Sequence record: OR699282.2
Direction: 5' to 3' (one strand)
From: Escherichia phage BAU.Micro_ELP-22
Length of the DNA stretch: 64,000 bases
Program-made: the position numbers and the translations under genes
Shown here: piece after piece, positions 33,963 to 55,936 of the stretch
Layout of the letters: the number at the start of each line of letters is the position of its first letter
Position numbering within the stretch: the stretch's first letter is position 1
Notes under the pieces: model-generated
What the model saw: only the letters and a program-made list of their open reading frames with translations
Database searches by the model: none
What the model was told of the DNA's origin: nothing

Positions 33963-34298
<336 letters not shown>

Positions 34299-34299
34299 A

Positions 34300-34482
34300 A
34301 TGACACACGAAGAATGGATGTCCAAACAGCATAAAGAACATGACTGCTTTGGGAATGGCATTCGTCAGGTACATTATGATATATTAAGAGATGAAAATCT
34401 TTTCAGGTCATATGTTTTGGATACCAGAAAACCCTGGTTTATATGCGAACTGGCATTTAGAAAGTCAAATAATCAAAACTAA
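34300..34482 (+). CDS. MTHEEW mini-protein family member 3
   Basis: 60 aa; MTHEEWM...WFICELAFRK. Confidence 0.5.
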   Translation: MTHEEWMSKQHKEHDCFGNGIRQVHYDILRDENLFRSYVLDTRKPWFICELAFRKSNNQN

Positions 34483-34498
34483 ACAAGGAATACAAAAA

Positions 34499-34717
34499 AT
34501 GGAAACAACTTTATTAGAAGTTATTCAATCATTAAAACCTGAAGATGAGGTTCAAGTACTACTACATGGTTATCGTGTAAAAGGTACTGTGGTTTTAGTC
34601 AATGATACAACATTGGTTATTACAGAAACAAACCCATATGATAGTAATCAACTTGCCAATATCCATATCGATATCACTGGAATTATTGGTGTCGGTGTAT
34701 CTAAAACACTTGCATAA
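34499..34717 (+). CDS. Hypothetical protein
   Basis: 72 aa from ATG with AGGAA RBS. Confidence 0.45.
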   Translation: METTLLEVIQSLKPEDEVQVLLHGYRVKGTVVLVNDTTLVITETNPYDSNQLANIHIDITGIIGVGVSKTLA

Positions 34718-34770
34718 ATCATTAATTCATTATATAATGATTATCACTGGTTCTAGATGAGGATAATATT

Positions 34771-35043
34771 ATGCATTTTGAAAAATTCAACGTAAATCGT
34801 AACACACGCATTGAAGTTCTTTATGAAACTCAAGACACCATTAGTATTCGTACAAGTAGTGGGGATGTATATCATGACTGTACGATTGGCTGGGAACAGG
34901 GAAGAACGCGTAGTGCAGTATTTGATAATTATCGCTTTTATCAAGGAGACACTACGATTTGGCCTGAATACGTAGAAGATATTGCGTTTGAAGATGAACA
35001 TAAAGATGAATTTATCAAATTTAATCCTCAAACTGAATCATAA
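34771..35043 (+). CDS. Hypothetical protein
   Basis: 90 aa; GAGGA RBS. Confidence 0.5.
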   Translation: MHFEKFNVNRNTRIEVLYETQDTISIRTSSGDVYHDCTIGWEQGRTRSAVFDNYRFYQGDTTIWPEYVEDIAFEDEHKDEFIKFNPQTES

Positions 35044-35048
35044 ATAAT

Positions 35049-35176
<128 letters not shown>

Positions 35177-35180
35177 AAAT

Positions 35181-35282
<102 letters not shown>

Positions 35283-35287
35283 AAACC

Positions 35288-35448
35288 ATGACGCATGAAG
35301 AATGGATGAATGACATTAATTTTAGATATTCGGGTATCGGTAAATGGCTAAAGTATCATTGGGAATTCATTTCAGAGCCACATATGTATGATAAACTTAT
35401 CAACGATCCAGCATATGAAATGTACTTAATTGAACTACTGGTACGAAT

Positions 35449-35452
<4 letters not shown>
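35288..35452 (+). CDS. MTHEEW mini-protein family member 4
   Basis: 54 aa; MTHEEWMNDINF...; below ORF-track threshold. Confidence 0.4.
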
Positions 35453-35614
<162 letters not shown>

Positions 35615-35624
35615 AAAAAAAAGA

Positions 35625-36033
<409 letters not shown>

Positions 36034-36037
<4 letters not shown>

Positions 36038-36061
36038 CTAAATAATTCAGTACTGTATAAT
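36034..36061 (+). promoter_or_regulatory. Early promoter, conserved-spacer family
   Basis: TTGACT-aaataattcagtactg-TATAAT; drives tRNA-Gly. Confidence 0.7.
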
Positions 36062-36063
36062 GC

Positions 36064-36147
<84 letters not shown>

Positions 36148-36167
36148 TTAATAATTCAAAGGTGAAT

Positions 36168-36344
36168 ATGATGCTATCACACAAAACAGCAACTGTTGAA
36201 AATATTGAATCATTATCTGCACAAGAATTGGTTGACAAAATTAAAGAAGTATGTGATAATAATGGCATTGATATGAATGATACATTTATTAGTGTAGGTT
36301 ATGGTGATTTAGAAATTCAATCTAAAACACTATATTATACTTGA
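36168..36344 (+). CDS. Small hypothetical protein
   Basis: 58 aa from ATG with AAGGTGA RBS. Confidence 0.45.
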   Translation: MMLSHKTATVENIESLSAQELVDKIKEVCDNNGIDMNDTFISVGYGDLEIQSKTLYYT

Positions 36345-36362
36345 CTAAATAGTTCAGTACCG
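36341..36362 (+). repeat. Degenerate copy of conserved-spacer promoter (has -35 and spacer, lacks -10)
   Basis: TTGACTaaatagttcagtacc followed by GAAGGAG rather than TATAAT. Confidence 0.5.
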
Positions 36363-36400
36363 AAGGAGATTAATATGTTTAAAGATGAACGTCCAGATTT

Positions 36401-36441
<41 letters not shown>

Positions 36442-36448
36442 GAATTCC

Positions 36449-36788
36449 ACAATCAGACGTATATGGTGTAAGTTACGTCGATGCAATCCAGAACAAGATC
36501 TCTGGTACTCTAGGAAGTGGTGAATGTTAACCTAGACGGGTTTGATAATTGGACGATAGGCAATTATTACTTGACTAGCAGGTTGAAACTAGAGGTGACA
36601 GTCCTTCACCAAACTGGAAAACCGGATGGACTTTTATTTAAAAGGGTAAGGCGTGGAAATATGTTTACAGAAGTTGCTTTTAGTAGCCTGTACGCCCCAC
36701 GTCAAGGTAGCCGAAAGGCAAGTTAAAACGGATGGTTATAAAGCTGAATTAACAGCGGCGTTTAAAAGCGTCACCATCCATTTTTTTT
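36449..36788 (+). ncRNA. Candidate structured non-coding RNA (about 340 nt) within the tRNA island
   Basis: Starts at predicted TSS of promoter 36413; GC-enriched versus flanks; ends in ggatggt...caccatcc stem plus T8; only internal ORF has GTG start. Confidence 0.35.
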
Positions 36789-36804
36789 AATTAAAGTTGG
36801 TGAT

Positions 36805-37194
<390 letters not shown>

Positions 37195-37210
37195 TATTAA
37201 GTATTGATAT

Positions 37211-37456
<246 letters not shown>

Positions 37457-37461
37457 CTAAA

Positions 37462-37626
<165 letters not shown>

Positions 37627-37650
37627 ACGAAATTACAATAGGAAATTAAA

Positions 37651-37836
37651 ATGCAACTTTTAATTCTTTCAATATTGTATATTATTATAATGGTTCCGAT
37701 ATCAATACGTTTAATTACAGTTGAACGATTTTTATCGAAACATGGAAATAGATCTATGATCTTTGTACCAATCGGGTTGATATTGTTTGGTATATTTTCA
37801 TTTATAATGGGAATTAACGCTACATTCATTTCATAG
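37651..37836 (+). CDS. Small membrane protein
   Basis: 61 aa; two hydrophobic helices; AGGAAA RBS. Confidence 0.45.
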   Translation: MQLLILSILYIIIMVPISIRLITVERFLSKHGNRSMIFVPIGLILFGIFSFIMGINATFIS

Positions 37837-37845
37837 GAAACAAAT

Positions 37846-38103
<258 letters not shown>

Positions 38104-38111
38104 GAATTTAA

Positions 38112-38513
38112 ATGAAAAAGAATGACTTGATCAAAATGCTTCAAGAGATTGACGGCAATCCAGAGATTGTTATTTGGAATGGATATGTCGATGATTATAT
38201 GAACATCGAAAAAGGCTTGACTAAAATCACTCTAGTCAAAGAAACTGAACAGTTCCTTCTGGAAGCATTAGTGCACGAATGGTGCAAACGTAACAATACA
38301 TTCGACATTCCAGAAGATCAACGAACTAAGATTGCAGAACGTGCTAAAGAACTGCATAAGAAACGCGAATACGATTTCCAGAACCCACATGTTACTGAAG
38401 ACGAATTCAATCACTGGTACGGTAAAAAGAAATTGACAAAGTATGTCCTTTCACCTAAACTACGTGGTAAGACTTCACTTGGTGTATTCAACGCCGCAGA
38501 CTTAAACTACTAG
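38112..38513 (+). CDS. Hypothetical protein (paralogue of next gene)
   Basis: 133 aa; N-terminus MKKNDLIKMLQEIDGNPEIV parallels next ORF. Confidence 0.55.
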   Translation: MKKNDLIKMLQEIDGNPEIVIWNGYVDDYMNIEKGLTKITLVKETEQFLLEALVHEWCKRNNTFDIPEDQRTKIAERAKELHKKREYDFQNPHVTEDEFNHWYGKKKLTKYVLSPKLRGKTSLGVFNAADLNY

Positions 38514-38522
38514 CGGGTATTA

Positions 38523-39071
<549 letters not shown>

Positions 39072-39073
39072 TA

Positions 39074-39130
<57 letters not shown>

Positions 39131-39143
39131 AGTAAGAGTAAAA

Positions 39144-39316
<173 letters not shown>

Positions 39317-39328
39317 TATCTTACTTCT

Positions 39329-39407
<79 letters not shown>

Positions 39408-39424
39408 CAAAATAAAGGTACACT

Positions 39425-50393: not shown

Positions 50394-50891
50394 ATGACAA
50401 CTGTTTATATTGATAAACGATTAAATTTATTGATTACCGATTCTAGAGTTACGTCAACTATACCACGAAACTTATTTGGTTTTTTCCCACTAAGACCAAA
50501 ATATCAATATGGAGTTGTTAATCAAAAAACTTTATATGTACATGACCGTTTATTCAGTGCTAGTGGGGTAGTAAGTGAAATTGATAAAGTACTGGATTGG
50601 TTAATTAATAAAGTACCAGTTATACCTGACAGAAAGTTAAGTTGCCATTGTGTGCTTCTTTCTAAAGATTATGTTATTCATATGATTTTAACTAAAGGAA
50701 AGTTTATTAAAAAACTTGAATATCTACATGAAGACTACACTTTCTTTATGGGAAGTGGTGGAGAATACATGCTAGATGCTGCTATTCATGAAGAACATAC
50801 AACTTTATATGATAAAGTGTTTAGTACTTTCATGGATGTGCACAACCATGATTGTTTCACAGATGATAATATTAATGTATATCGATTTTGA
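50394..50891 (+). CDS. HslV-like N-terminal-nucleophile peptidase (proteasome beta-type)
   Basis: 165 aa; starts MTT (Thr nucleophile position as in HslV MTTIVSV); FMGSGGEYMLDAA parallels HslV IGSGGPYAQAA. Confidence 0.55.
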   Translation: MTTVYIDKRLNLLITDSRVTSTIPRNLFGFFPLRPKYQYGVVNQKTLYVHDRLFSASGVVSEIDKVLDWLINKVPVIPDRKLSCHCVLLSKDYVIHMILTKGKFIKKLEYLHEDYTFFMGSGGEYMLDAAIHEEHTTLYDKVFSTFMDVHNHDCFTDDNINVYRF

Positions 50892-50912: not shown

Positions 50913-51878
50913 GTGAAAAAGCTTGATTTAAATACAATTGCCGAAGAAGTTCTGGATGAATGTTTTGCTAATGAAGAAGTCAACACACTAGAAGCCTTAG
51001 ATTTCGTTGAAGATAAAGATGAAAATGAAGGTAAAGTACAAAGCAGTTTCAAATATAATATTACACTTAAGCGACCACCAAATGTTTCCAATGAAGATCT
51101 AATTCGTGATATTCAAGCTGGTATCAATGTAAAGAAAAACACTGAACTGTTAGTTCGTTACAATTATGGACTGATTATTGATGTAGCAAGTAAATGTACT
51201 TGTTATATCCCATTTGAAGATAAGATTTCATATGGTGTTGAGGGGTTCATGAGAGCACTAAAAACCTTTGATCTTAATAAGAATGTTAAGTTCATTACCT
51301 ATGCTTCTTCTAGTATTTACATGACAGTCTATAACGAAAGTTCTGACGCTAACTATATGGTACACTTCCCACGTTATATGAGTGTTCATAAGATCAAAGT
51401 AAAAAGATTCTGTCAGGAATATATGCGTAAACATGGTGTTCGCCCAACTCCTGAAATAATCTCAGAGGGTACTGGGATTGAGATTCAGCATGTTAATAAT
51501 TGTTTGTTATTTCAAAGCGAATACACTTCGCTGGATGCACCATTAGACGGTGTTACAGATGGTACATTAGGTGACATTATTCATTCACCTGCTTCTGATT
51601 TTAACCTCAATGTTGATAGTATCCGTGCACCTTTACGTTATGCTATCAATGAACTGACTAACGAATTGAGTACTAAAGAACGTGAGATTATCCAGCGTGT
51701 TCATGGTCTAGGTGAATATGAACCTGAAACGCTTCGTGAGATTGCTGATAATGGTTTTGTTGATGATAATGGAAAATATGTTAAATCCCGTTCATCAATA
51801 CACCGAAAGTACAGTGAAGCTATGCAAAAGCTTAAGAAGTTAGTACTTGCAAAAGGGTACGAATACGAAGATTTCTAA
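50913..51878 (+). CDS. Sigma-70 family RNA polymerase sigma factor
   Basis: 321 aa, GTG start after AGGAG; region 2-like GVEGFMRALKTFDLNKNVKFITYASSSI and HFPRYM; region 4-like TLREIAD... Confidence 0.65.
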   Translation: MKKLDLNTIAEEVLDECFANEEVNTLEALDFVEDKDENEGKVQSSFKYNITLKRPPNVSNEDLIRDIQAGINVKKNTELLVRYNYGLIIDVASKCTCYIPFEDKISYGVEGFMRALKTFDLNKNVKFITYASSSIYMTVYNESSDANYMVHFPRYMSVHKIKVKRFCQEYMRKHGVRPTPEIISEGTGIEIQHVNNCLLFQSEYTSLDAPLDGVTDGTLGDIIHSPASDFNLNVDSIRAPLRYAINELTNELSTKEREIIQRVHGLGEYEPETLREIADNGFVDDNGKYVKSRSSIHRKYSEAMQKLKKLVLAKGYEYEDF

Positions 51879-51885
51879 AGAACAA

Positions 51886-51911
51886 GGGTTGGCTTATGCC
51901 AACCTTTTTTT
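51886..51911 (+). terminator. Rho-independent terminator
   Basis: ggttggc-ttat-gccaacc hairpin followed by T7. Confidence 0.75.
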
Positions 51912-51914
51912 ATG

Positions 51915-51941
51915 GGATGAAGTAAAAGTTTGTGATATAAT
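51915..51941 (+). promoter_or_regulatory. Probable early promoter (strong extended -10, weak -35)
   Basis: TGTGATATAAT. Confidence 0.4.
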
Positions 51942-51944
51942 TAT

Positions 51945-52430
51945 CTTGTACAATTCTGTTGGCATGATATTCATGTACCTGATCCACTCGAAAACGTAGA
52001 GGGCAGTTGAGCAGTCCGACAGTGCGAACAGCAAAAGAAACCCGTTAGATGTGGGCATAGTTTGAACCCCTCACGGCAATGCGGCTGTATAAAGAACCAC
52101 GTTAGGATAGCTGGTGGTTCCTTGATAGACATATAAGGATAACACCTTACGAATTATCTAAGGGAGAGTTATCGAATTTTGTACAGGAAAGTTGCGTCCA
52201 AAATTTGAGTACTCACATTAAGTATTTGATTGCATAGATACTTAATGAAGATACACTATGTTTAAAAGTGTAGACCGTCATATGAAACTGAAGTAGAGAG
52301 AAACAGGATGACCCGCTTTCGCACTCGTTATGAGTAATCTTCAATGCAATAGCTCTGATACCATCAGCGTCAAATTTCCCTCCTTGTGGGGGGAAGAAAA
52401 ATCCCTTCCTCAAATCCCGTCAATATTAAA
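51945..52430 (+). ncRNA. ORF-free, partly GC-enriched block; candidate structured RNA
   Basis: No + strand ORF of 60 aa or more; first ~150 nt markedly more GC-rich than genome; ends with 8-bp hairpin ttccctcc/ggggggaa. Confidence 0.3.
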
Positions 52431-52435
52431 AGTCC

Positions 52436-52464
52436 TTGACAGTTATTAATCATTCGCGTAGAAT
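52436..52464 (+). promoter_or_regulatory. Sigma70-type promoter
   Basis: TTGACA, 17 nt spacer, TAGAAT. Confidence 0.55.
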
Positions 52465-52528
52465 ACGTAGTATTAGAAGCGAACAGACATCTCGAAGAGA
52501 TGGATGATTAACCATTAAGGAATATCCA

Positions 52529-52738
52529 ATGAATTCAGTAATCTTTTTAGTAGTCGCTTTTTCTGTTAATTCCGGTGTACAAATAACCCCAATGAATTCC
52601 ATGAATCAATGTATAGCAGTACGTGATAGTACATACGAACAAGTAAACAAAGATATTTGGATTACAGTTAATAAAGAACAAATGTGGTGTTACAATAGTA
52701 ATACTAACACAAAGCTTATTGTAGGACAAACTCAATGA
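52529..52738 (+). CDS. Small secreted protein
   Basis: 69 aa; hydrophobic N-terminus; AAGGAA RBS. Confidence 0.5.
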   Translation: MNSVIFLVVAFSVNSGVQITPMNSMNQCIAVRDSTYEQVNKDIWITVNKEQMWCYNSNTNTKLIVGQTQ

Positions 52739-52965
52739 GTTATGGTGTTCGTTTTGAGATTCGTTCTATTGTCATCGATGCAGAGAAACAAGTATCGTTA
52801 GATGGTGATATACGTGAAATTTATCTATCATGTATACGTGCGAAATCTGAAGCAGATGCCTTAGTACAAATGTATAGTTTTAACTTTTCAAATGGATTCT
52901 ATTTGGTACGAGTTATTGAAGTGAAAAAAGTACTTATTGGTTGTAGCATAGAAGGATTAATGTAA
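52735..52965 (+). CDS. Hypothetical protein
   Basis: 76 aa; ATGA overlap. Confidence 0.45.
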   Translation: MSYGVRFEIRSIVIDAEKQVSLDGDIREIYLSCIRAKSEADALVQMYSFNFSNGFYLVRVIEVKKVLIGCSIEGLM

Positions 52966-52966
52966 A

Positions 52967-53755
52967 ATGAGCACTATAGATGAACTGATTCGACGGAATT
53001 CAAAATATTACCAACCATCAGAAATTGTAGGTAACATTACCAAATCAGAGTTTGGTCCAAATACTCGAAAACTCATTCATGTAATGTCACGTGATGGCTT
53101 TAAATGTGATTGTTGTGGTGAATCAAATGTAGTATTCACTTTACACAAGCACAGTACTAAAGAACGTTATAAATTCAGACCTTATGTACTTAAAGGGAAA
53201 CGCCTTGTACGCATGACGTTAGACCATAATGTACTGGACTGTCTTCAGGGCGGTAATGATAAAGAGAACATGACTGCACTGTGTGAAGATTGTAACGCAT
53301 TACGCCAGCATAAGTTTGCTGAATACAGTGAGTTTAAACACTGGTATCATAACGCGGATCGTTCAATCGAGCCTGACGTTAACTACTGCTTCATTGAGTA
53401 CATTAAGAATGCCAAAGATACATACATTCTTAAATCAATGTCACCTATTACCGTGTTTCCTGAGAACCTATTCACTACATTAAAGAATAGTTTTATTGTA
53501 GGTGATATTGATGCATTCAAGTATTTTGACAAAGGTGCAAAACATTTTGAAATTCAATGTCTTAGTACTGCACTATGTGAACTCATTAAAATTTACATAA
53601 AAGAGTATTTGGGTATTGACAATGTACGTGTACCAGAGTATACTTTTTCTATTGAATTCGATTGTGAATCAATCAAAGAGTTTGGAATTCTTTTCAATAA
53701 ACAAATAGAACTTGCAATTCAAAACGAAATCAAGTACTATACTACTAACATTTAA
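52967..53755 (+). CDS. HNH endonuclease (probable free-standing homing endonuclease)
   Basis: 262 aa; Cys cluster FKCDCCGE; HNH core TLDHNVLDCLQGGNDKENMTALCEDCNALRQH. Confidence 0.7.
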   Translation: MSTIDELIRRNSKYYQPSEIVGNITKSEFGPNTRKLIHVMSRDGFKCDCCGESNVVFTLHKHSTKERYKFRPYVLKGKRLVRMTLDHNVLDCLQGGNDKENMTALCEDCNALRQHKFAEYSEFKHWYHNADRSIEPDVNYCFIEYIKNAKDTYILKSMSPITVFPENLFTTLKNSFIVGDIDAFKYFDKGAKHFEIQCLSTALCELIKIYIKEYLGIDNVRVPEYTFSIEFDCESIKEFGILFNKQIELAIQNEIKYYTTNI

Positions 53756-53770
53756 TCAGAGGAAATTATC

Positions 53771-53953
53771 ATGCAAATTATCATTCTTATCGTTGGCATC
53801 ATGCTGGGTGTTTACGGTCACTCCTGGATGAACGAGAAGTTTCCTAATACGCGTCCTGAGTATTGCAGTACTAATGTATTCCAGAATGGTGAGAAACCAA
53901 AGGAAAGCATTGGTAAAAAGCTGGATAAAGTACTTGATGTGATCAATGAATAA
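53771..53953 (+). CDS. Small membrane protein
   Basis: 60 aa; hydrophobic N-terminus; GAGGAAA RBS. Confidence 0.45.
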   Translation: MQIIILIVGIMLGVYGHSWMNEKFPNTRPEYCSTNVFQNGEKPKESIGKKLDKVLDVINE

Positions 53954-53963
53954 GGGCCATAAA

Positions 53964-54164
53964 ATGTTTAAACCGAATTCCAATGTTGGTAAGAAAGTTC
54001 AATTACTTGAAGATGTATCCACCATGAGTGGAATTTTCCCAAGAGGTCACATCATGACTATTATTGCCGAAACATCCCGTGGGTGGGATTTGGAAGATGC
54101 TGATGGTAATCGCATCCTTGAGGCTGGATTCTATGGTCATCGTGAATATAAAATCATTGATTAA
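53964..54164 (+). CDS. Hypothetical protein
   Basis: 66 aa from ATG with AAGGG RBS. Confidence 0.45.
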   Translation: MFKPNSNVGKKVQLLEDVSTMSGIFPRGHIMTIIAETSRGWDLEDADGNRILEAGFYGHREYKIID

Positions 54165-54173
54165 GGATACAAC

Positions 54174-54257
54174 ATGACTTTAGAGATTGTCTTTGGTATT
54201 GTTAGCTTAGTCGTCTGTGTGGGTTGGTTTGGGTATCTGATGATTTTTGGTGATTAA
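54174..54257 (+). CDS. Possible hydrophobic micro-protein
   Basis: 27 aa; AAGGA RBS; almost entirely hydrophobic. Confidence 0.25.
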   Translation: MTLEIVFGIVSLVVCVGWFGYLMIFGD

Positions 54258-54260
54258 TAC

Positions 54261-54288
54261 TTGACATAAGATATCAGTACTGTATAAT
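54261..54288 (+). promoter_or_regulatory. Early promoter, conserved-spacer family
   Basis: TTGACA-taagatatcagtactg-TATAAT. Confidence 0.7.
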
Positions 54289-54301
54289 GTTTATATCAAA
54301 G

Positions 54302-54351
54302 GGAATGCAGTGAAAGGAAAGACAGCATAATCGTACTCGTCACTGCGTTCC
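54302..54351 (+). promoter_or_regulatory. 5' leader hairpin, possible regulatory structure
   Basis: gggaatgcagtga ... tcactgcgttccc 13-bp stem (one G-U), 24-nt loop, 30 nt upstream of the 54382 start. Confidence 0.45.
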
Positions 54352-54381
54352 CGCCCTTTTAAATTAAATGAGGAATTAACT

Positions 54382-54690
54382 ATGTTTCAAACTAACACTC
54401 AAGGTTTTGTAATCATCGATTTGAATCAAAACAGCGGTTATTGGATGAAACCTACTGACGCATGTATGCAGTTTGATTTTTTAGGTTACAGGATTAGTGT
54501 AAGTACTGGTGCTTCTGTACTGCGTGGTGGTTGTATCGTTGAACATCTGGTAACTGATCCAGAAGGTCGTGAGTATGAAATCGCAGGTTCGGTACAAGAT
54601 GCCATTATGTTTGTATGTCAGCGTGAAATGAATAGTTCGAATTCAAATGCACTGACTCATGCTCTTTCTCAAGAAGTGGAGGTTCGTTAA
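54382..54690 (+). CDS. Hypothetical protein
   Basis: 102 aa; GAGGAA RBS. Confidence 0.55.
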   Translation: MFQTNTQGFVIIDLNQNSGYWMKPTDACMQFDFLGYRISVSTGASVLRGGCIVEHLVTDPEGREYEIAGSVQDAIMFVCQREMNSSNSNALTHALSQEVEVR

Positions 54691-54941
54691 TGAAATATAT
54701 CGTAGCAGTACTCGTTGCATTTTTACTCACTGCATGTGACGCTTCAACAAAAGAACGCACAAGTGATTTTATTCTCCCTATTGAATTACAAGAAGCAGGA
54801 TGTAAGATTTATCGTATGCAAAAGGACGGTGCTGGCGTAACCTTGTATACAGTTTATTGCCCTAATGCAAATACCAGTACTGGATACAGCAGCGGTAAAA
54901 CACGAATCAATACTTCAGTGATTAATGGAGTACAACAATGA
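54690..54941 (+). CDS. Small lipoprotein
   Basis: 83 aa; signal peptide with lipobox LTAC. Confidence 0.55.
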   Translation: MKYIVAVLVAFLLTACDASTKERTSDFILPIELQEAGCKIYRMQKDGAGVTLYTVYCPNANTSTGYSSGKTRINTSVINGVQQ

Positions 54942-55306
54942 GCCTTGATACAACCCGTGCAACAGATTTATTAACTCGTATGAATAATGAAGAATTTCTT
55001 GCTGAAATAAAGTACAAGCTTGAAAAACTGGCACGAAGTGCTGAAGTAATTGAAGTTGAAGGTCACTTACCAATGGACCAATTCAATACGTTCAACGAAG
55101 ATATGGTTTATTATCCAAATGAAATTTGGATTGAGTGGGAGTCATGGACTAACAAAACTCTACGCATTGAAGGTTATTGTGTGAATTATGAATCTGAACC
55201 TGGTGATGTTACAAAAACTCTCTCCATTTGGTGTACAAAAACACATGAACTCGTTGAGGTGAATTTGAATTATATGAAAGGTTTCCGTTGGGGTGATGTT
55301 CAATGA
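54938..55306 (+). CDS. Hypothetical protein
   Basis: 122 aa; ATGA overlap. Confidence 0.5.
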   Translation: MSLDTTRATDLLTRMNNEEFLAEIKYKLEKLARSAEVIEVEGHLPMDQFNTFNEDMVYYPNEIWIEWESWTNKTLRIEGYCVNYESEPGDVTKTLSIWCTKTHELVEVNLNYMKGFRWGDVQ

Positions 55307-55578
55307 TTAAAAAACTATTGACAGTTGTCTTTGTATTCTGTACAATGTTTCTTACAGCATGTAATGATGACGGCAGGTTTAGTGCAAAAGACTTAGTTCG
55401 TCAGGATTGTACATTCACAGGTAAGTCTTTTATTAACGAGTATGAGGTATGTACACAATCAGGCCGTATCTGTGGTGGTTGGGAAAAACGACAGGAGCGA
55501 TTGTATGTATATGAATGCCCTGGACATCACAACAAAGTACTAAGCACACACAAACTTGTTTATGATAAGGTTGAATAA
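55303..55578 (+). CDS. Small lipoprotein
   Basis: 91 aa; signal peptide with lipobox LTAC; 4 further Cys. Confidence 0.55.
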   Translation: MIKKLLTVVFVFCTMFLTACNDDGRFSAKDLVRQDCTFTGKSFINEYEVCTQSGRICGGWEKRQERLYVYECPGHHNKVLSTHKLVYDKVE

Positions 55579-55793
55579 TGACTACCAATGAAATGATGCA
55601 GGTTATTTGGGATAAAGGTTGTGATATTAAAATCACTAGTACTGATGTTCGTGTATTCAAAACTGAATATATGGAGTACTTGGACCTTGATACTTATAAT
55701 AATATTGTATCAATTGAACACAAAGGTGCAGTACTGGAAACCATTGACGTAGTACTCAAGAAAGCTACCGACCTATTAGGAGTGGCAGTGTGA
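55578..55793 (+). CDS. Hypothetical protein
   Basis: 71 aa; TAATG overlap. Confidence 0.5.
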   Translation: MTTNEMMQVIWDKGCDIKITSTDVRVFKTEYMEYLDLDTYNNIVSIEHKGAVLETIDVVLKKATDLLGVAV

Positions 55794-55936
55794 ATAACAA
55801 AGAGTGGGAAGATTACCGCAAGAAGTGCAGGGAGTTTGATAAAGAACTTACTGGTACAGTGAATGCAGTAATGTGGGTATCTGTAATTATTGCAGTTCTT
55901 GCGTTGGGTGCTATTATTATTAATAAATTATTCTAA
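55790..55936 (+). CDS. Small C-terminally anchored membrane protein
   Basis: 48 aa, GTG start overlapping upstream stop, AGGAG RBS. Confidence 0.35.
   Translation: MNNKEWEDYRKKCREFDKELTGTVNAVMWVSVIIAVLALGAIIINKLF

What the first reader, a model, noticed from the sequence alone, without database searches (positions are those of the whole stretch)
52967..53755. Free-standing HNH endonuclease in the accessory region
A Cys cluster plus the DH...N...H core indicate an HNH nuclease. It is not inside an intron and lies ~500 bp downstream of the anomalous GC-rich block, which may be an acquired target-site remnant.
Basis: partly seen in the sequence, partly recalled or inferred. Interest (0 to 1): 0.45.

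Follow-up and report, generated by a model that had tools for sequence, protein, structure and literature searches.

The report
Free-standing HNH endonuclease, jumbo phage
The ORF is a real stand-alone HNH DNA-cutting enzyme already annotated in close relatives of this giant E. coli phage, most likely a selfish, dispensable gene, while the "GC-rich block" upstream is a conserved structured RNA and not a target-site remnant.

Summary

The gene is free-standing, and with the upstream 76-aa ORF it forms a dispensable cassette. Related phages show four states at this locus: intact, 31-bp frameshift, in-frame loss of the nuclease domain, and cassette deleted. Intact copies are under purifying selection (dN/dS 0.15-0.29). 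Sequence identity to an otherwise 99-100% identical HNH-less phage drops sharply at the cassette edges. This fits a homing-type selfish endonuclease, but cleavage and homing are untested. The "empty" alleles are deletion derivatives, not naive target sites.

That block (about 51997-52426) is a roughly 430-nt structured RNA with strong covariation. It occurs 3-5 times per genome in Rak2-like jumbo phages, including HNH-less ones, and has no Rfam match. It is the more interesting object here.

The parts
52967..53755 (+). HNH endonuclease ORF (262 aa plus stop), orthologue of 121Q gp170
53099..53341 (+). HNH beta-beta-alpha-metal core (residues ~45-125): CxxC 53105-53116, DH 53222-53227, N101 53267-53269, CxxCN 53282-53296
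   Evidence: Invariant or >=90% conserved columns in the 23- and 60-sequence alignments. Model secondary structure is E79-87, E102-106, H107-113. Pfam HNH/HNH_5 match residues 83-119.
53354..53752 (+). C-terminal helical domain (residues ~130-262), candidate DNA-binding or specificity domain
52735..52965 (+). 76-aa ORF of unknown function, lost together with the HNH gene in cassette-less phages
   Evidence: PHROG 28392 at E 8e-50, function unknown. Its start overlaps the stop of the upstream ORF (ATGA), and its stop lies 1 nt before the HNH ATG. Absent in JNE01 and EC22.5-2. A 54%-identical homologue is retained in phage A4.
52739..53615 (.). Main segment (877 bp) missing from HNH-less relatives (EC22.5-2, JNE01). 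A second 87-bp segment, 53660-53746, is also missing.
   Evidence: Pairwise BLAST and alignments. The retained piece L003 4242-4285 aligns to window 53616-53659 with score 41, against 20.5 +/- 2.7 in 500 shuffles and none as high.
52436..52464 (+). Sigma-70-type promoter (TTGACA-17-TAGAAT, 11/12), likely driving the orf69-orf76-HNH operon
   Evidence: Consensus scan. Conserved at the same position in L002, L003 and L009. Function is inferred, not shown.
53616..53644 (+). Sigma-70-type promoter (TTGACA-17-TATACT, 11/12) embedded in the 3' end of the HNH ORF, likely feeding the downstream genes
   Evidence: Consensus scan. The same promoter lies inside the HNH 3' end of the 59%-identical metagenomic homologue (L004 6644) and of the truncated A4 remnant (L009 2996). 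It is intergenic in the HNH-less alleles, at L003 4242 and L002 4778.
52529..52738 (+). 69-aa ORF flanking the cassette; its 3' half forms the left divergence tract
   Evidence: Identity between the window and the HNH-less EC22.5-2 is 99-100% for 2.4 kb. It then falls to 89%, 81% and 46% over 52508-52742. On the right side it is 70% over 53737-53836 and then 95-100%.
51997..52426 (+). The finding's 'GC-rich block': a conserved structured RNA of ~430 nt. It is context only, not part of the HNH cassette.
   Evidence: Alignments A4 and A5. RNAalifold. Pair counts with controls. The covariance model R1 hits 52013-52168 at 171 bits, E 1e-40, the only copy in the window. No Rfam match.

Best explanation
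ORF 52967-53755 encodes a free-standing HNH (beta-beta-alpha-metal) DNA endonuclease of a family confined to Rak2-like jumbo phages.

Shown:
- Two CxxC pairs (C47/C50 and C106/C109) form the zinc site that staples the fold.
- H87, in the DH motif at the end of strand 1, sits at the general-base position.
- N101 and N110 occupy the structural and metal-ligand positions, making this an HNN variant.
- A fast-evolving helical C-terminal domain follows the nuclease core.
- The gene and the upstream 76-aa ORF form a dispensable cassette in an early operon that lies downstream of the phage sigma-factor gene and a structured RNA.
- The three ORFs orf69, orf76 and HNH abut or overlap.
- A promoter-like site sits upstream at 52436-52464, and another at 53616-53644 lies inside the HNH 3' end.

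Inferred:
- The protein behaves as a homing-type selfish endonuclease. In mixed infections it cuts a related genome that lacks the cassette or carries a variant allele, near this locus.
- Recombinational repair then copies the cassette and short flanking tracts from the HNH+ genome.
- The C-terminal domain supplies site recognition.
- The embedded promoter keeps the downstream genes expressed.
- Once the cassette is fixed in a lineage it decays, which would explain the truncated, frameshifted and deleted alleles.
For: Identity as an HNH nuclease:
- PHROG 35175 at E 2e-188.
- Invariant C47, C50, H87, G95, C106, C109 and >=90% conserved T84, D86, N101, N110 in 60 homologues down to about 20% identity.
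- 19 of 23 family members hit Pfam HNH_5 and 16 of 23 hit HNH.

Functional protein: dN/dS is 0.15-0.29, like the neighbouring genes.

Dispensable and decaying, with three independent inactivations:
- The cassette is absent in JNE01 and EC22.5-2. Turkey5 and ECO103 4-12-1 cover the query in the same partial way as JNE01 and EC22.5-2, but their loci were not read.
- A 31-bp deletion in SD-1_S14, and an in-frame deletion of about 531 bp that removes the whole nuclease domain in A4.

Localised exchange:
- Identity to the otherwise 99-100% identical EC22.5-2 collapses only within about 200 bp to the left and 100 bp to the right of the cassette.
- The HNH-less patch of EC22.5-2 is 96-100% identical to that of the otherwise divergent JNE01.
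- Against fEgEco12 the nuclease half is 91-98% identical, while the adjacent sigma-factor gene is 51-86%.

Different locus in another genus: the homologue CBB_535 lies in a different gene neighbourhood. [quoted passage not shown]
Against: - No cleavage activity, target site or super-Mendelian inheritance has been shown for this protein or any family member I could find.
- The 'empty' alleles are not naive sites. They keep a 44-nt piece of the HNH 3' end. The polymorphism therefore documents loss, not invasion.
- The direction of the recombination tracts cannot be resolved.
- The gene sits at the same syntenic position in a relative whose HNH is only 59% identical. That also fits long vertical inheritance of a useful gene.
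- Purifying selection fits any function.
- The final metal ligand is Asn rather than His. This is common in active HNN enzymes, but it is not proof of activity.
Confidence: 0.6

Rival explanations
1. A domesticated accessory nuclease that benefits the phage, for example by degrading host DNA or the DNA of competing phages early in infection. It is not a self-propagating homing element.
For: - It lies in an early operon behind a consensus sigma-70-type promoter.
- It is under purifying selection, dN/dS 0.15-0.29.
- It keeps the same syntenic position down to 59% protein identity.
- It is intact in about 28 of about 35 related genomes.
Against: - It has been lost or inactivated independently at least three times in phages that were isolated and propagated.
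- Family members are patchy and sit at different loci in other genera.
- Divergence and recombination are concentrated at the cassette edges.
- No PADLOC match.
Confidence: 0.22
2. A catalytically inactive HNH-like zinc-finger protein that acts only as a DNA-binding protein or regulator.
For: - The canonical last His is Asn, and H115 is not conserved.
- The Pfam HNH score is below the gathering cut-off.
Against: - The general-base His and its Asp, both Asn residues and all four Cys are conserved across about 60 homologues. That pattern is expected for an active HNN enzyme.
- From general knowledge of the family, Cas9 HNH and I-HmuI also use Asn at this position.
- A4 lost exactly the nuclease domain and kept the C-terminal part. 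If the C-terminal domain were the whole function, intact genomes would not need to conserve the catalytic residues.
Confidence: 0.1
3. A packaging-associated HNH that assists the terminase, as in HK97-like cos phages.
For: Only the general precedent that many phage HNH proteins work with terminases (general knowledge).
Against: - The neighbours are a sigma factor, an HslV-like ORF and small early ORFs, not terminase or portal genes.
- The gene is absent or broken in viable relatives.
Confidence: 0.03
4. An RNA-guided or RNA-associated nuclease that works with the structured RNA about 540 bp upstream, by analogy with IscB and its omega RNA.
For: - The structured RNA lies just upstream of the promoter that likely drives the HNH operon.
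- There is a sub-threshold NCBIfam hit to IscB.
Against: - The IscB match is only the HNH segment, 19.8 bits against a 175-bit cut-off, and there is no RuvC domain.
- The RNA has no HEARO/omega-RNA or any other Rfam match.
- The RNA is kept unchanged in HNH-less phages and at 2-4 other loci per genome whose downstream genes are unrelated to HNH.
- Two ORFs and a promoter separate the RNA from the HNH gene.
Confidence: 0.02

Closest known systems
Escherichia phage 121Q gp170 and its orthologues in PBECO4, SHEFM2K, E9.1 and JP4 (PHROG 35175, 'HNH endonuclease')
   Same: The same gene at the same locus, 96-99.6% protein identity, with a full-length profile match.
   Different: Nothing of substance. 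These are database annotations without experimental work. The window's genome differs nearby by lacking a 92-aa gene.
Free-standing HNH homing endonucleases of Rak2-like phages (CBB_535 and the GAP32, Serratia BF and Yersinia fHe-Yen9 homologues), described in PMC5259590
   Same: The same protein family, with 31-42% identity over the nuclease half plus a related C-terminal domain in the ~300-aa members. They are free-standing and sit in early or accessory regions.
   Different: A different genomic locus, and they are 40-60 aa longer at the ends. They too are called homing endonucleases by inference only.
Characterised phage HNH homing endonucleases (I-HmuI of SPO1, T4 MobE and I-TevIII). This comparison is from general knowledge, not tested here.
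   Same: A beta-beta-alpha-metal nuclease module joined to a separate DNA-recognition region. They are selfish, dispensable, patchily distributed among close relatives, and flanking markers are co-converted. I-HmuI also has the HNN variant.
   Different: There is no detectable sequence similarity beyond the HNH motif. I-HmuI and I-TevIII are intron-encoded, whereas this gene is not. Target site and activity are unknown here. The C-terminal domain has no recognisable counterpart.
HNH domains of Cas9 and IscB (closest solved structures)
   Different: No RuvC domain and no guide-RNA family match. The NCBIfam IscB score is 19.8 bits against a 175-bit cut-off. The resemblance is at the level of the domain fold only.

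Membership tests
HNH (beta-beta-alpha-metal) nuclease superfamily | Beta-beta-alpha-metal fold | tested here: met
HNH (beta-beta-alpha-metal) nuclease superfamily | Conserved general-base His (the first H, usually in a D/E-H motif) | tested here: met
   H87 is invariant in 60 sequences and D86 is >=90% conserved.
HNH (beta-beta-alpha-metal) nuclease superfamily | Conserved Asn (the N) and a final His or Asn metal ligand on the helix | tested here: met
   N101 and N110 are >=90% conserved in 60 sequences and invariant in the 23 closer ones. The final position is Asn, so this is an HNN variant. H115 is not conserved.
HNH (beta-beta-alpha-metal) nuclease superfamily | Two CxxC pairs forming the structural zinc site (zinc-finger subclass) | tested here: met
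   C47, C50, C106 and C109 are invariant in 60 sequences.
HNH (beta-beta-alpha-metal) nuclease superfamily | Score above the Pfam HNH or HNH_5 gathering cut-off (an operational criterion, not a biochemical one) | tested here: inconclusive
   This protein scores 15.7 bits against 21.4 and 15.1 against 27.5, below both cut-offs. At E<0.01, 19 of 23 family members match HNH_5 and 16 of 23 match HNH.
HNH (beta-beta-alpha-metal) nuclease superfamily | Metal-dependent nuclease activity | not testable with these tools
   Needs purified protein and an H87A control.
Free-standing homing endonuclease gene | ORF not embedded in an intron or intein | tested here: met
   It lies between ordinary ORFs. There is no group I or group II intron match, nor any other Rfam match, in 51700-52800 or in the whole window apart from tRNAs.
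Free-standing homing endonuclease gene | Presence/absence polymorphism at one locus among close relatives | tested here: met
   Intact in most 121Q-like genomes. Absent in EC22.5-2 and JNE01, truncated in A4, and frameshifted in SD-1_S14. ECO103 4-12-1 and Turkey5 show the same partial coverage, but their loci were not read.
Free-standing homing endonuclease gene | A naive (never occupied) empty allele that carries the recognition site | tested here: not met
   The HNH-less alleles retain a 44-nt fragment of the HNH 3' end, including its embedded promoter (score 41 against 20.5 +/- 2.7 in shuffles, 0 of 500 as high). They are deletion derivatives. No naive site was found in the collections searched.
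Free-standing homing endonuclease gene | Flanking co-conversion or recombination tracts centred on the gene | tested here: met
   Against EC22.5-2, identity runs 99-100%, then 89%, 81% and 46% on the left, and 70% then 95-100% on the right. A mosaic pattern is also seen against fEgEco12. The direction of transfer is not resolvable.
Free-standing homing endonuclease gene | Site-specific cleavage of the endonuclease-lacking allele and its over-inheritance in crosses | not testable with these tools
   Requires in vitro cleavage mapping and mixed-infection crosses.
IscB / RNA-guided HNH nucleases | A RuvC domain split by the HNH insertion, and an adjacent omega (HEARO) RNA | tested here: not met
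   The NCBIfam IscB match covers only profile positions 200-249 of 314, at 19.8 bits against a 175-bit cut-off. There is no HEARO or other Rfam match near the gene.
Terminase-associated HNH (HK97-type packaging factor) | Adjacency to terminase or portal genes, and essentiality | tested here: not met
   The neighbours are a sigma factor, an HslV-like ORF and small early ORFs. The gene is absent in viable relatives.

The most novel reading that the evidence does not exclude
The most novel thing tied to this finding is not the nuclease. On this reading the block belongs to an undescribed family of ~430-nt structured RNAs confined to Rak2-like jumbo phages. The family is kept at 3-5 orthologous intergenic slots per genome, and the HNH cassette merely sits in the operon that begins right after one copy. 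A much less likely extension (about 2-3%) is that the RNA and the nuclease work together.
Probability: 0.6. Interest if true: 0.7.

Novelty: already known. Interest (0 to 1): 0.18.

Why it matters
As a gene call it adds nothing new. The same protein is already annotated as an HNH endonuclease in GenBank records of 121Q-like phages, and its homologues have been called free-standing homing endonucleases.

Its modest value is as a clean natural series for studying the life cycle of a selfish nuclease in jumbo phages. Close relatives carry intact, frameshifted, nuclease-deleted and cassette-deleted alleles, with sharply localised recombination tracts and a promoter built into the 3' end of the gene. 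Isolated HNH+ and HNH- phages exist, so homing could be tested directly.

That block is a strongly supported, apparently unclassified, multi-copy structured RNA specific to this clade of giant phages, and it deserves its own study.

Tried and rejected
- Pfam on the single protein gave only sub-threshold HNH hits.
- A sequence search of the PDB found nothing relevant; the only hit was ribosomal protein L33 at E 0.8, a zinc-ribbon artefact.
- The word-indexed homologue search returned only 5 close clusters. The exhaustive profile search was needed to reach the wider family.
- The first AF2 model, built from a 4-sequence alignment, was unusable at pLDDT 50.7. The 60-sequence alignment gave pLDDT 92.
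- PADLOC found no defence-system match.
- NCBIfam gave only a sub-threshold IscB HNH segment, so the RNA-guided reading was rejected.
- The terminase-partner reading was rejected on gene context.
- I first read the HNH-less alleles as naive empty sites. I dropped that after finding the HNH-derived promoter fragment in them.
- For the RNA, Rfam gave nothing at gathering thresholds or at E<=10.
- The RNA-seq-defined ncRNA001 and ncRNA002 of the distantly related phage PA5oct (PMC7318152) do not match the covariance model.
- Four literature searches found no description of the RNA and no experimental work on this HNH family. Reading the Sharanji and fEgEco12 genome papers added nothing.

Full report
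**1. What is at the coordinates**

The ORF list shows an ATG-initiated ORF at exactly 52967..53755 on the + strand, 262 aa. A megablast of 51500-54500 identifies the window as a 121Q/PBECO4/SP27-like (Asteriusvirus) jumbo phage of E. coli. Identity is 97-99.3% over the whole query in about 20 records. Several of these annotate the ORF as 'HNH endonuclease', for example 121Q gene 170. By tblastn the protein is 99.6% identical to those of SHEFM2K, E9.1 and JP4. The object is therefore real and already carries this annotation in public records.

**2. Is it an HNH nuclease?**

- Pfam alone is weak: HNH scores 15.7 bits against a 21.4-bit cut-off, and HNH_5 scores 15.1 against 27.5.
- PHROGs gives a full-length match to phrog_35175 'HNH endonuclease' (E 2e-188) and to 13 other HNH PHROGs.
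- A profile search of 1.84 billion representative proteins finds 139 relatives. About 20 of them are ~300-aa proteins that align over nearly the whole length.
- In a 23-sequence alignment reaching down to 22% identity, C47, C50, T84, D86, H87, L90, G95, N101, C106, C109, N110, R113 and F123 are invariant.
- In 60 sequences, C47, C50, H87, G95, C106 and C109 remain invariant, and T84, D86, N101 and N110 are at least 90% conserved.
- This is the classical zinc-stapled pattern CxxC...DH...N...CxxC(N/H). The last ligand is Asn, so this is an HNN variant.
- Scanned individually, 19 of 23 family members hit Pfam HNH_5 and 16 of 23 hit HNH.
- An AlphaFold model from a 4-sequence alignment was poor, pLDDT 50.7. 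With 60 sequences it reached pLDDT 92.2. It shows strands 79-87 and 102-106 followed by helix 107-113, which is the beta-beta-alpha-metal arrangement.
- Foldseek against the PDB was not significant.
- The C-terminal ~130 residues are helical and have no convincing neighbour.

That criterion is not met, so the identification stands.

**3. Context and expression signals**

The order of features is as follows.
- An HslV-like ORF (50394-50891) and a sigma-70-family sigma factor gene (50913-51878) lie upstream.
- An intrinsic terminator sits at 51884-51907.
- A ~650-bp non-coding stretch follows.
- A TTGACA-17-TAGAAT promoter-like site sits at 52436-52464.
- Three ORFs come next: a 69-aa ORF (52529-52738), a 76-aa ORF (52735-52965) and the HNH ORF.
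- The first two ORFs overlap in ATGA. Only 1 nt separates the 76-aa stop from the HNH ATG. This suggests co-transcription and translational coupling, which is an inference.
- A second near-consensus promoter-like site, TTGACA-17-TATACT at 53616-53644, lies inside the last 140 nt of the HNH ORF.
- The same site occurs at the same position in a metagenomic homologue whose HNH is only 59% identical (L004 6644) and in the truncated A4 remnant (L009 2996).
- No intron-type RNA or any other Rfam family is found here. The gene is free-standing.

**4. Comparison with relatives: a dispensable, decaying cassette**

- In EC22.5-2 (L003) and JNE01 (L002), homology to the window stops at 52707. It resumes at 53747 in L003 and 53752 in L002, with 86-94 bp in between. 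Both the 76-aa ORF and the HNH ORF are missing.
- ECO103 4-12-1 and Turkey5 show the same partial coverage of the query. Their loci were not read.
- The short intergenic piece in the HNH-less alleles contains a TTGACA-17-TATACT promoter.
- That piece aligns to window 53616-53659, inside the HNH 3' coding region. The score is 41 against 20.5 +/- 2.7 in 500 shuffles, none as high.
- This part of the protein is also aligned in distant family members. It is HNH-gene sequence.
- The 'empty' alleles are therefore deletion derivatives. They lack 52739-53615 and 53660-53746, and they are not naive target sites.
- Two further independent inactivations exist. Phage A4 keeps the start codon (MSTI) fused in frame to residues ~181-end of a fEgEco12-type HNH, so about 531 bp and the whole nuclease domain are gone. 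Salmonella phage SD-1_S14 has a 31-bp deletion at ORF nt 366-396.
- Intact copies are under purifying selection. dN/dS is 0.29 against fEgEco12 and 0.15 against the metagenomic homologue, similar to the sigma-factor gene at 0.18-0.24.

**5. Signs of localised exchange**

- The window and the HNH-less EC22.5-2 are 99-100% identical for 2.4 kb to the left. Identity then falls to 89%, 81% and 46% over the last 235 nt before the cassette. It is 70% in the first 100 nt after it and then returns to 95-100%.
- In that patch EC22.5-2 is 96-100% identical to JNE01, which is otherwise divergent. A short haplotype centred on the cassette has therefore moved between lineages. The direction cannot be determined.
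- Against fEgEco12 the region is a mosaic:
  - sigma-factor gene: 51-86%
  - RNA block: 98-100%
  - orf69 and orf76: 78-87%
  - HNH nuclease half: 91-98% (pN 0.010)
  - HNH C-terminal half: 63-82% (pN 0.245)
  - downstream 54000-55900: 97-100%
- In other genera, family members lie elsewhere. CBB_535 sits in a different gene neighbourhood, and its genome paper describes it as following a virion structural protein.
- No experimental characterisation of the family turned up.

**6. Most likely mechanism**

Shown: an HNH nuclease fold with conserved catalytic and zinc residues; a free-standing, dispensable cassette; repeated decay; purifying selection on intact copies; recombination tracts at its borders.

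Inferred: it acts as a homing-type selfish endonuclease, or at least as an agent of inter-phage competition. It would cut related genomes that lack it or carry a variant allele during co-infection, and it would be copied in by recombinational repair. The divergent C-terminal domain would set site specificity, and the embedded promoter would preserve expression of downstream genes.

I put about 0.95 on 'HNH nuclease' and about 0.6 on the homing reading.

The rivals are:
- a domesticated beneficial nuclease (about 0.22);
- an inactive DNA-binding derivative (about 0.10);
- a terminase partner (about 0.03);
- an RNA-associated nuclease (about 0.02).

The last is disfavoured for three reasons. The only IscB signal is the HNH segment at 19.8 bits against a 175-bit cut-off. 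PADLOC finds nothing. The upstream RNA is phylogenetically independent of the HNH gene.

**7. The 'anomalous GC-rich block'**

- GC is 0.37-0.41 there against about 0.30-0.33 nearby.
- A blastn search of 51900-52530 finds the element in 61 records of Rak2-like jumbo phages. These infect Escherichia, Salmonella, Erwinia, Serratia, Pectobacterium, Cronobacter, Yersinia, Klebsiella and Xanthomonas. Identity is 68-100%, with 3-5 places per genome.
- The window holds one copy.
- The element occupies ~650-bp intergenic gaps that carry no credible genes.
- Copies fall into orthologous slots, each with its own conserved downstream gene: a 69-aa ORF, a ~174-aa protein, a ~267-303-aa protein, or a ~124-131-aa protein. 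None is an HNH.
- A 7-sequence alignment gave 72 predicted pairs, 26 of them with compensatory changes.
- A 24-sequence alignment of distinct copies gave 45 consensus pairs in 10 helices, including long-range ones.
- With that structure, 98.2% of cells are paired against 43-50% when partners are slid by 1-3 columns. There are 184 double-change cells against 3-29, and the covariation score is 0.529 against at most 0.125. In 500 column shuffles, none reached the observed value for four of the five measures.
- Frequent G-U pairs on the + strand indicate a + strand RNA.
- A covariance model of the 5' domain scores 171 bits (E 1e-40) at 52013-52168.
- Rfam 15 has no match, either at gathering thresholds or at E<=10.
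- The RNA-seq-defined ncRNAs of PA5oct (PMC7318152) do not match the model.
- The invariant motif CACGGCAATGCGGCNNTATAAA occurs in 20 IMG/VR stretches, all but two of them on ~350-380-kb contigs. It occurs in 22 metagenome stretches. It occurs in only one of 185,579 species genomes, on a 212-kb MAG contig.
- The block is unchanged in the HNH-less phages.

It is therefore a conserved structured RNA, not a remnant of an HNH target site. Its function is unknown, and I found no published description.

**8. Verdict**

The nuclease is already known as an annotated gene family and is of low interest in itself. The upstream RNA is the noteworthy by-product.

Noticed in passing
window 51997-52426 (+): A ~430-nt conserved structured RNA, the finding's 'GC-rich block'. 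It occurs 3-5 times per genome in Rak2-like jumbo phages of nine host genera. Covariation is strong: 45 pairs, 98.2% of cells paired against 43-50% in slid controls, and 184 compensatory cells against 3-29. It has no Rfam match and I found no literature on it. Its function is unknown.
   Followed up: yes
alignment A5; loci L028 (Yen904_c), L032 (BF_b), L029, L008 (7t3), L018: The RNA family shows modular rearrangements. The conserved module ACAAT..AGATCCGTCCAAAATTTGAG usually sits after TAAGGGAG, but in three copies it lies inside a different helix loop. Three copies (7t3, L018, L029) carry an extra hairpin followed by a T-run, terminator-like, before the 3' G-rich hairpin.
   Followed up: partly
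window 54164-54382, compared with L001 5811-6131: The window lacks a ~320-350-bp segment holding a 92-aa gene that is present in E9.1, JNE01, EC22.5-2, A4 and SD-1_S14. In A4 this gene is annotated, oddly, as a sigma-70 family protein. A 28-bp overlap of the flanking matches (54282-54309) adjoins a consensus promoter at 54261-54288, which suggests deletion between repeated promoter-region sequences. fEgEco12 also lacks the gene.
   Followed up: partly
window 54000-55900: The window is a mosaic of two lineages. Downstream of the HNH locus it is 97-100% identical to fEgEco12, yet only 72-93% identical to the 121Q-like EC22.5-2 over 54737-55236. Over the HNH gene itself it is 99% identical to 121Q-like phages and only 63-98% identical to fEgEco12.
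   Followed up: partly
window 33985-39408: A cluster of seven tRNA genes: Gly-TCC twice, Ser-TGA, Ser-GCT, Met, Asn and Thr. There is also a borderline tRNA-like Rfam hit at 35181-35259 (29.3 bits against a 29-bit cut-off) that ARAGORN did not call.
   Followed up: no
window 50394-50891 (+): A 165-aa ORF just upstream of the sigma-factor gene. It has a weak PHROG match to the HslV peptidase family (E 9e-6) and is annotated as HslV in fEgEco12. Pfam finds nothing.
   Followed up: no
L004 4498-5946 (metagenomic relative): In the relative whose HNH is 59% identical, there is no single 76-aa ORF between the orf69 homologue and the HNH gene. Instead there are two small ORFs (70 and 67 aa) with a similar C-terminal '...VEV..V' pattern, plus a 286-aa ORF of unknown function. 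The cargo next to the HNH gene therefore varies.
   Followed up: no
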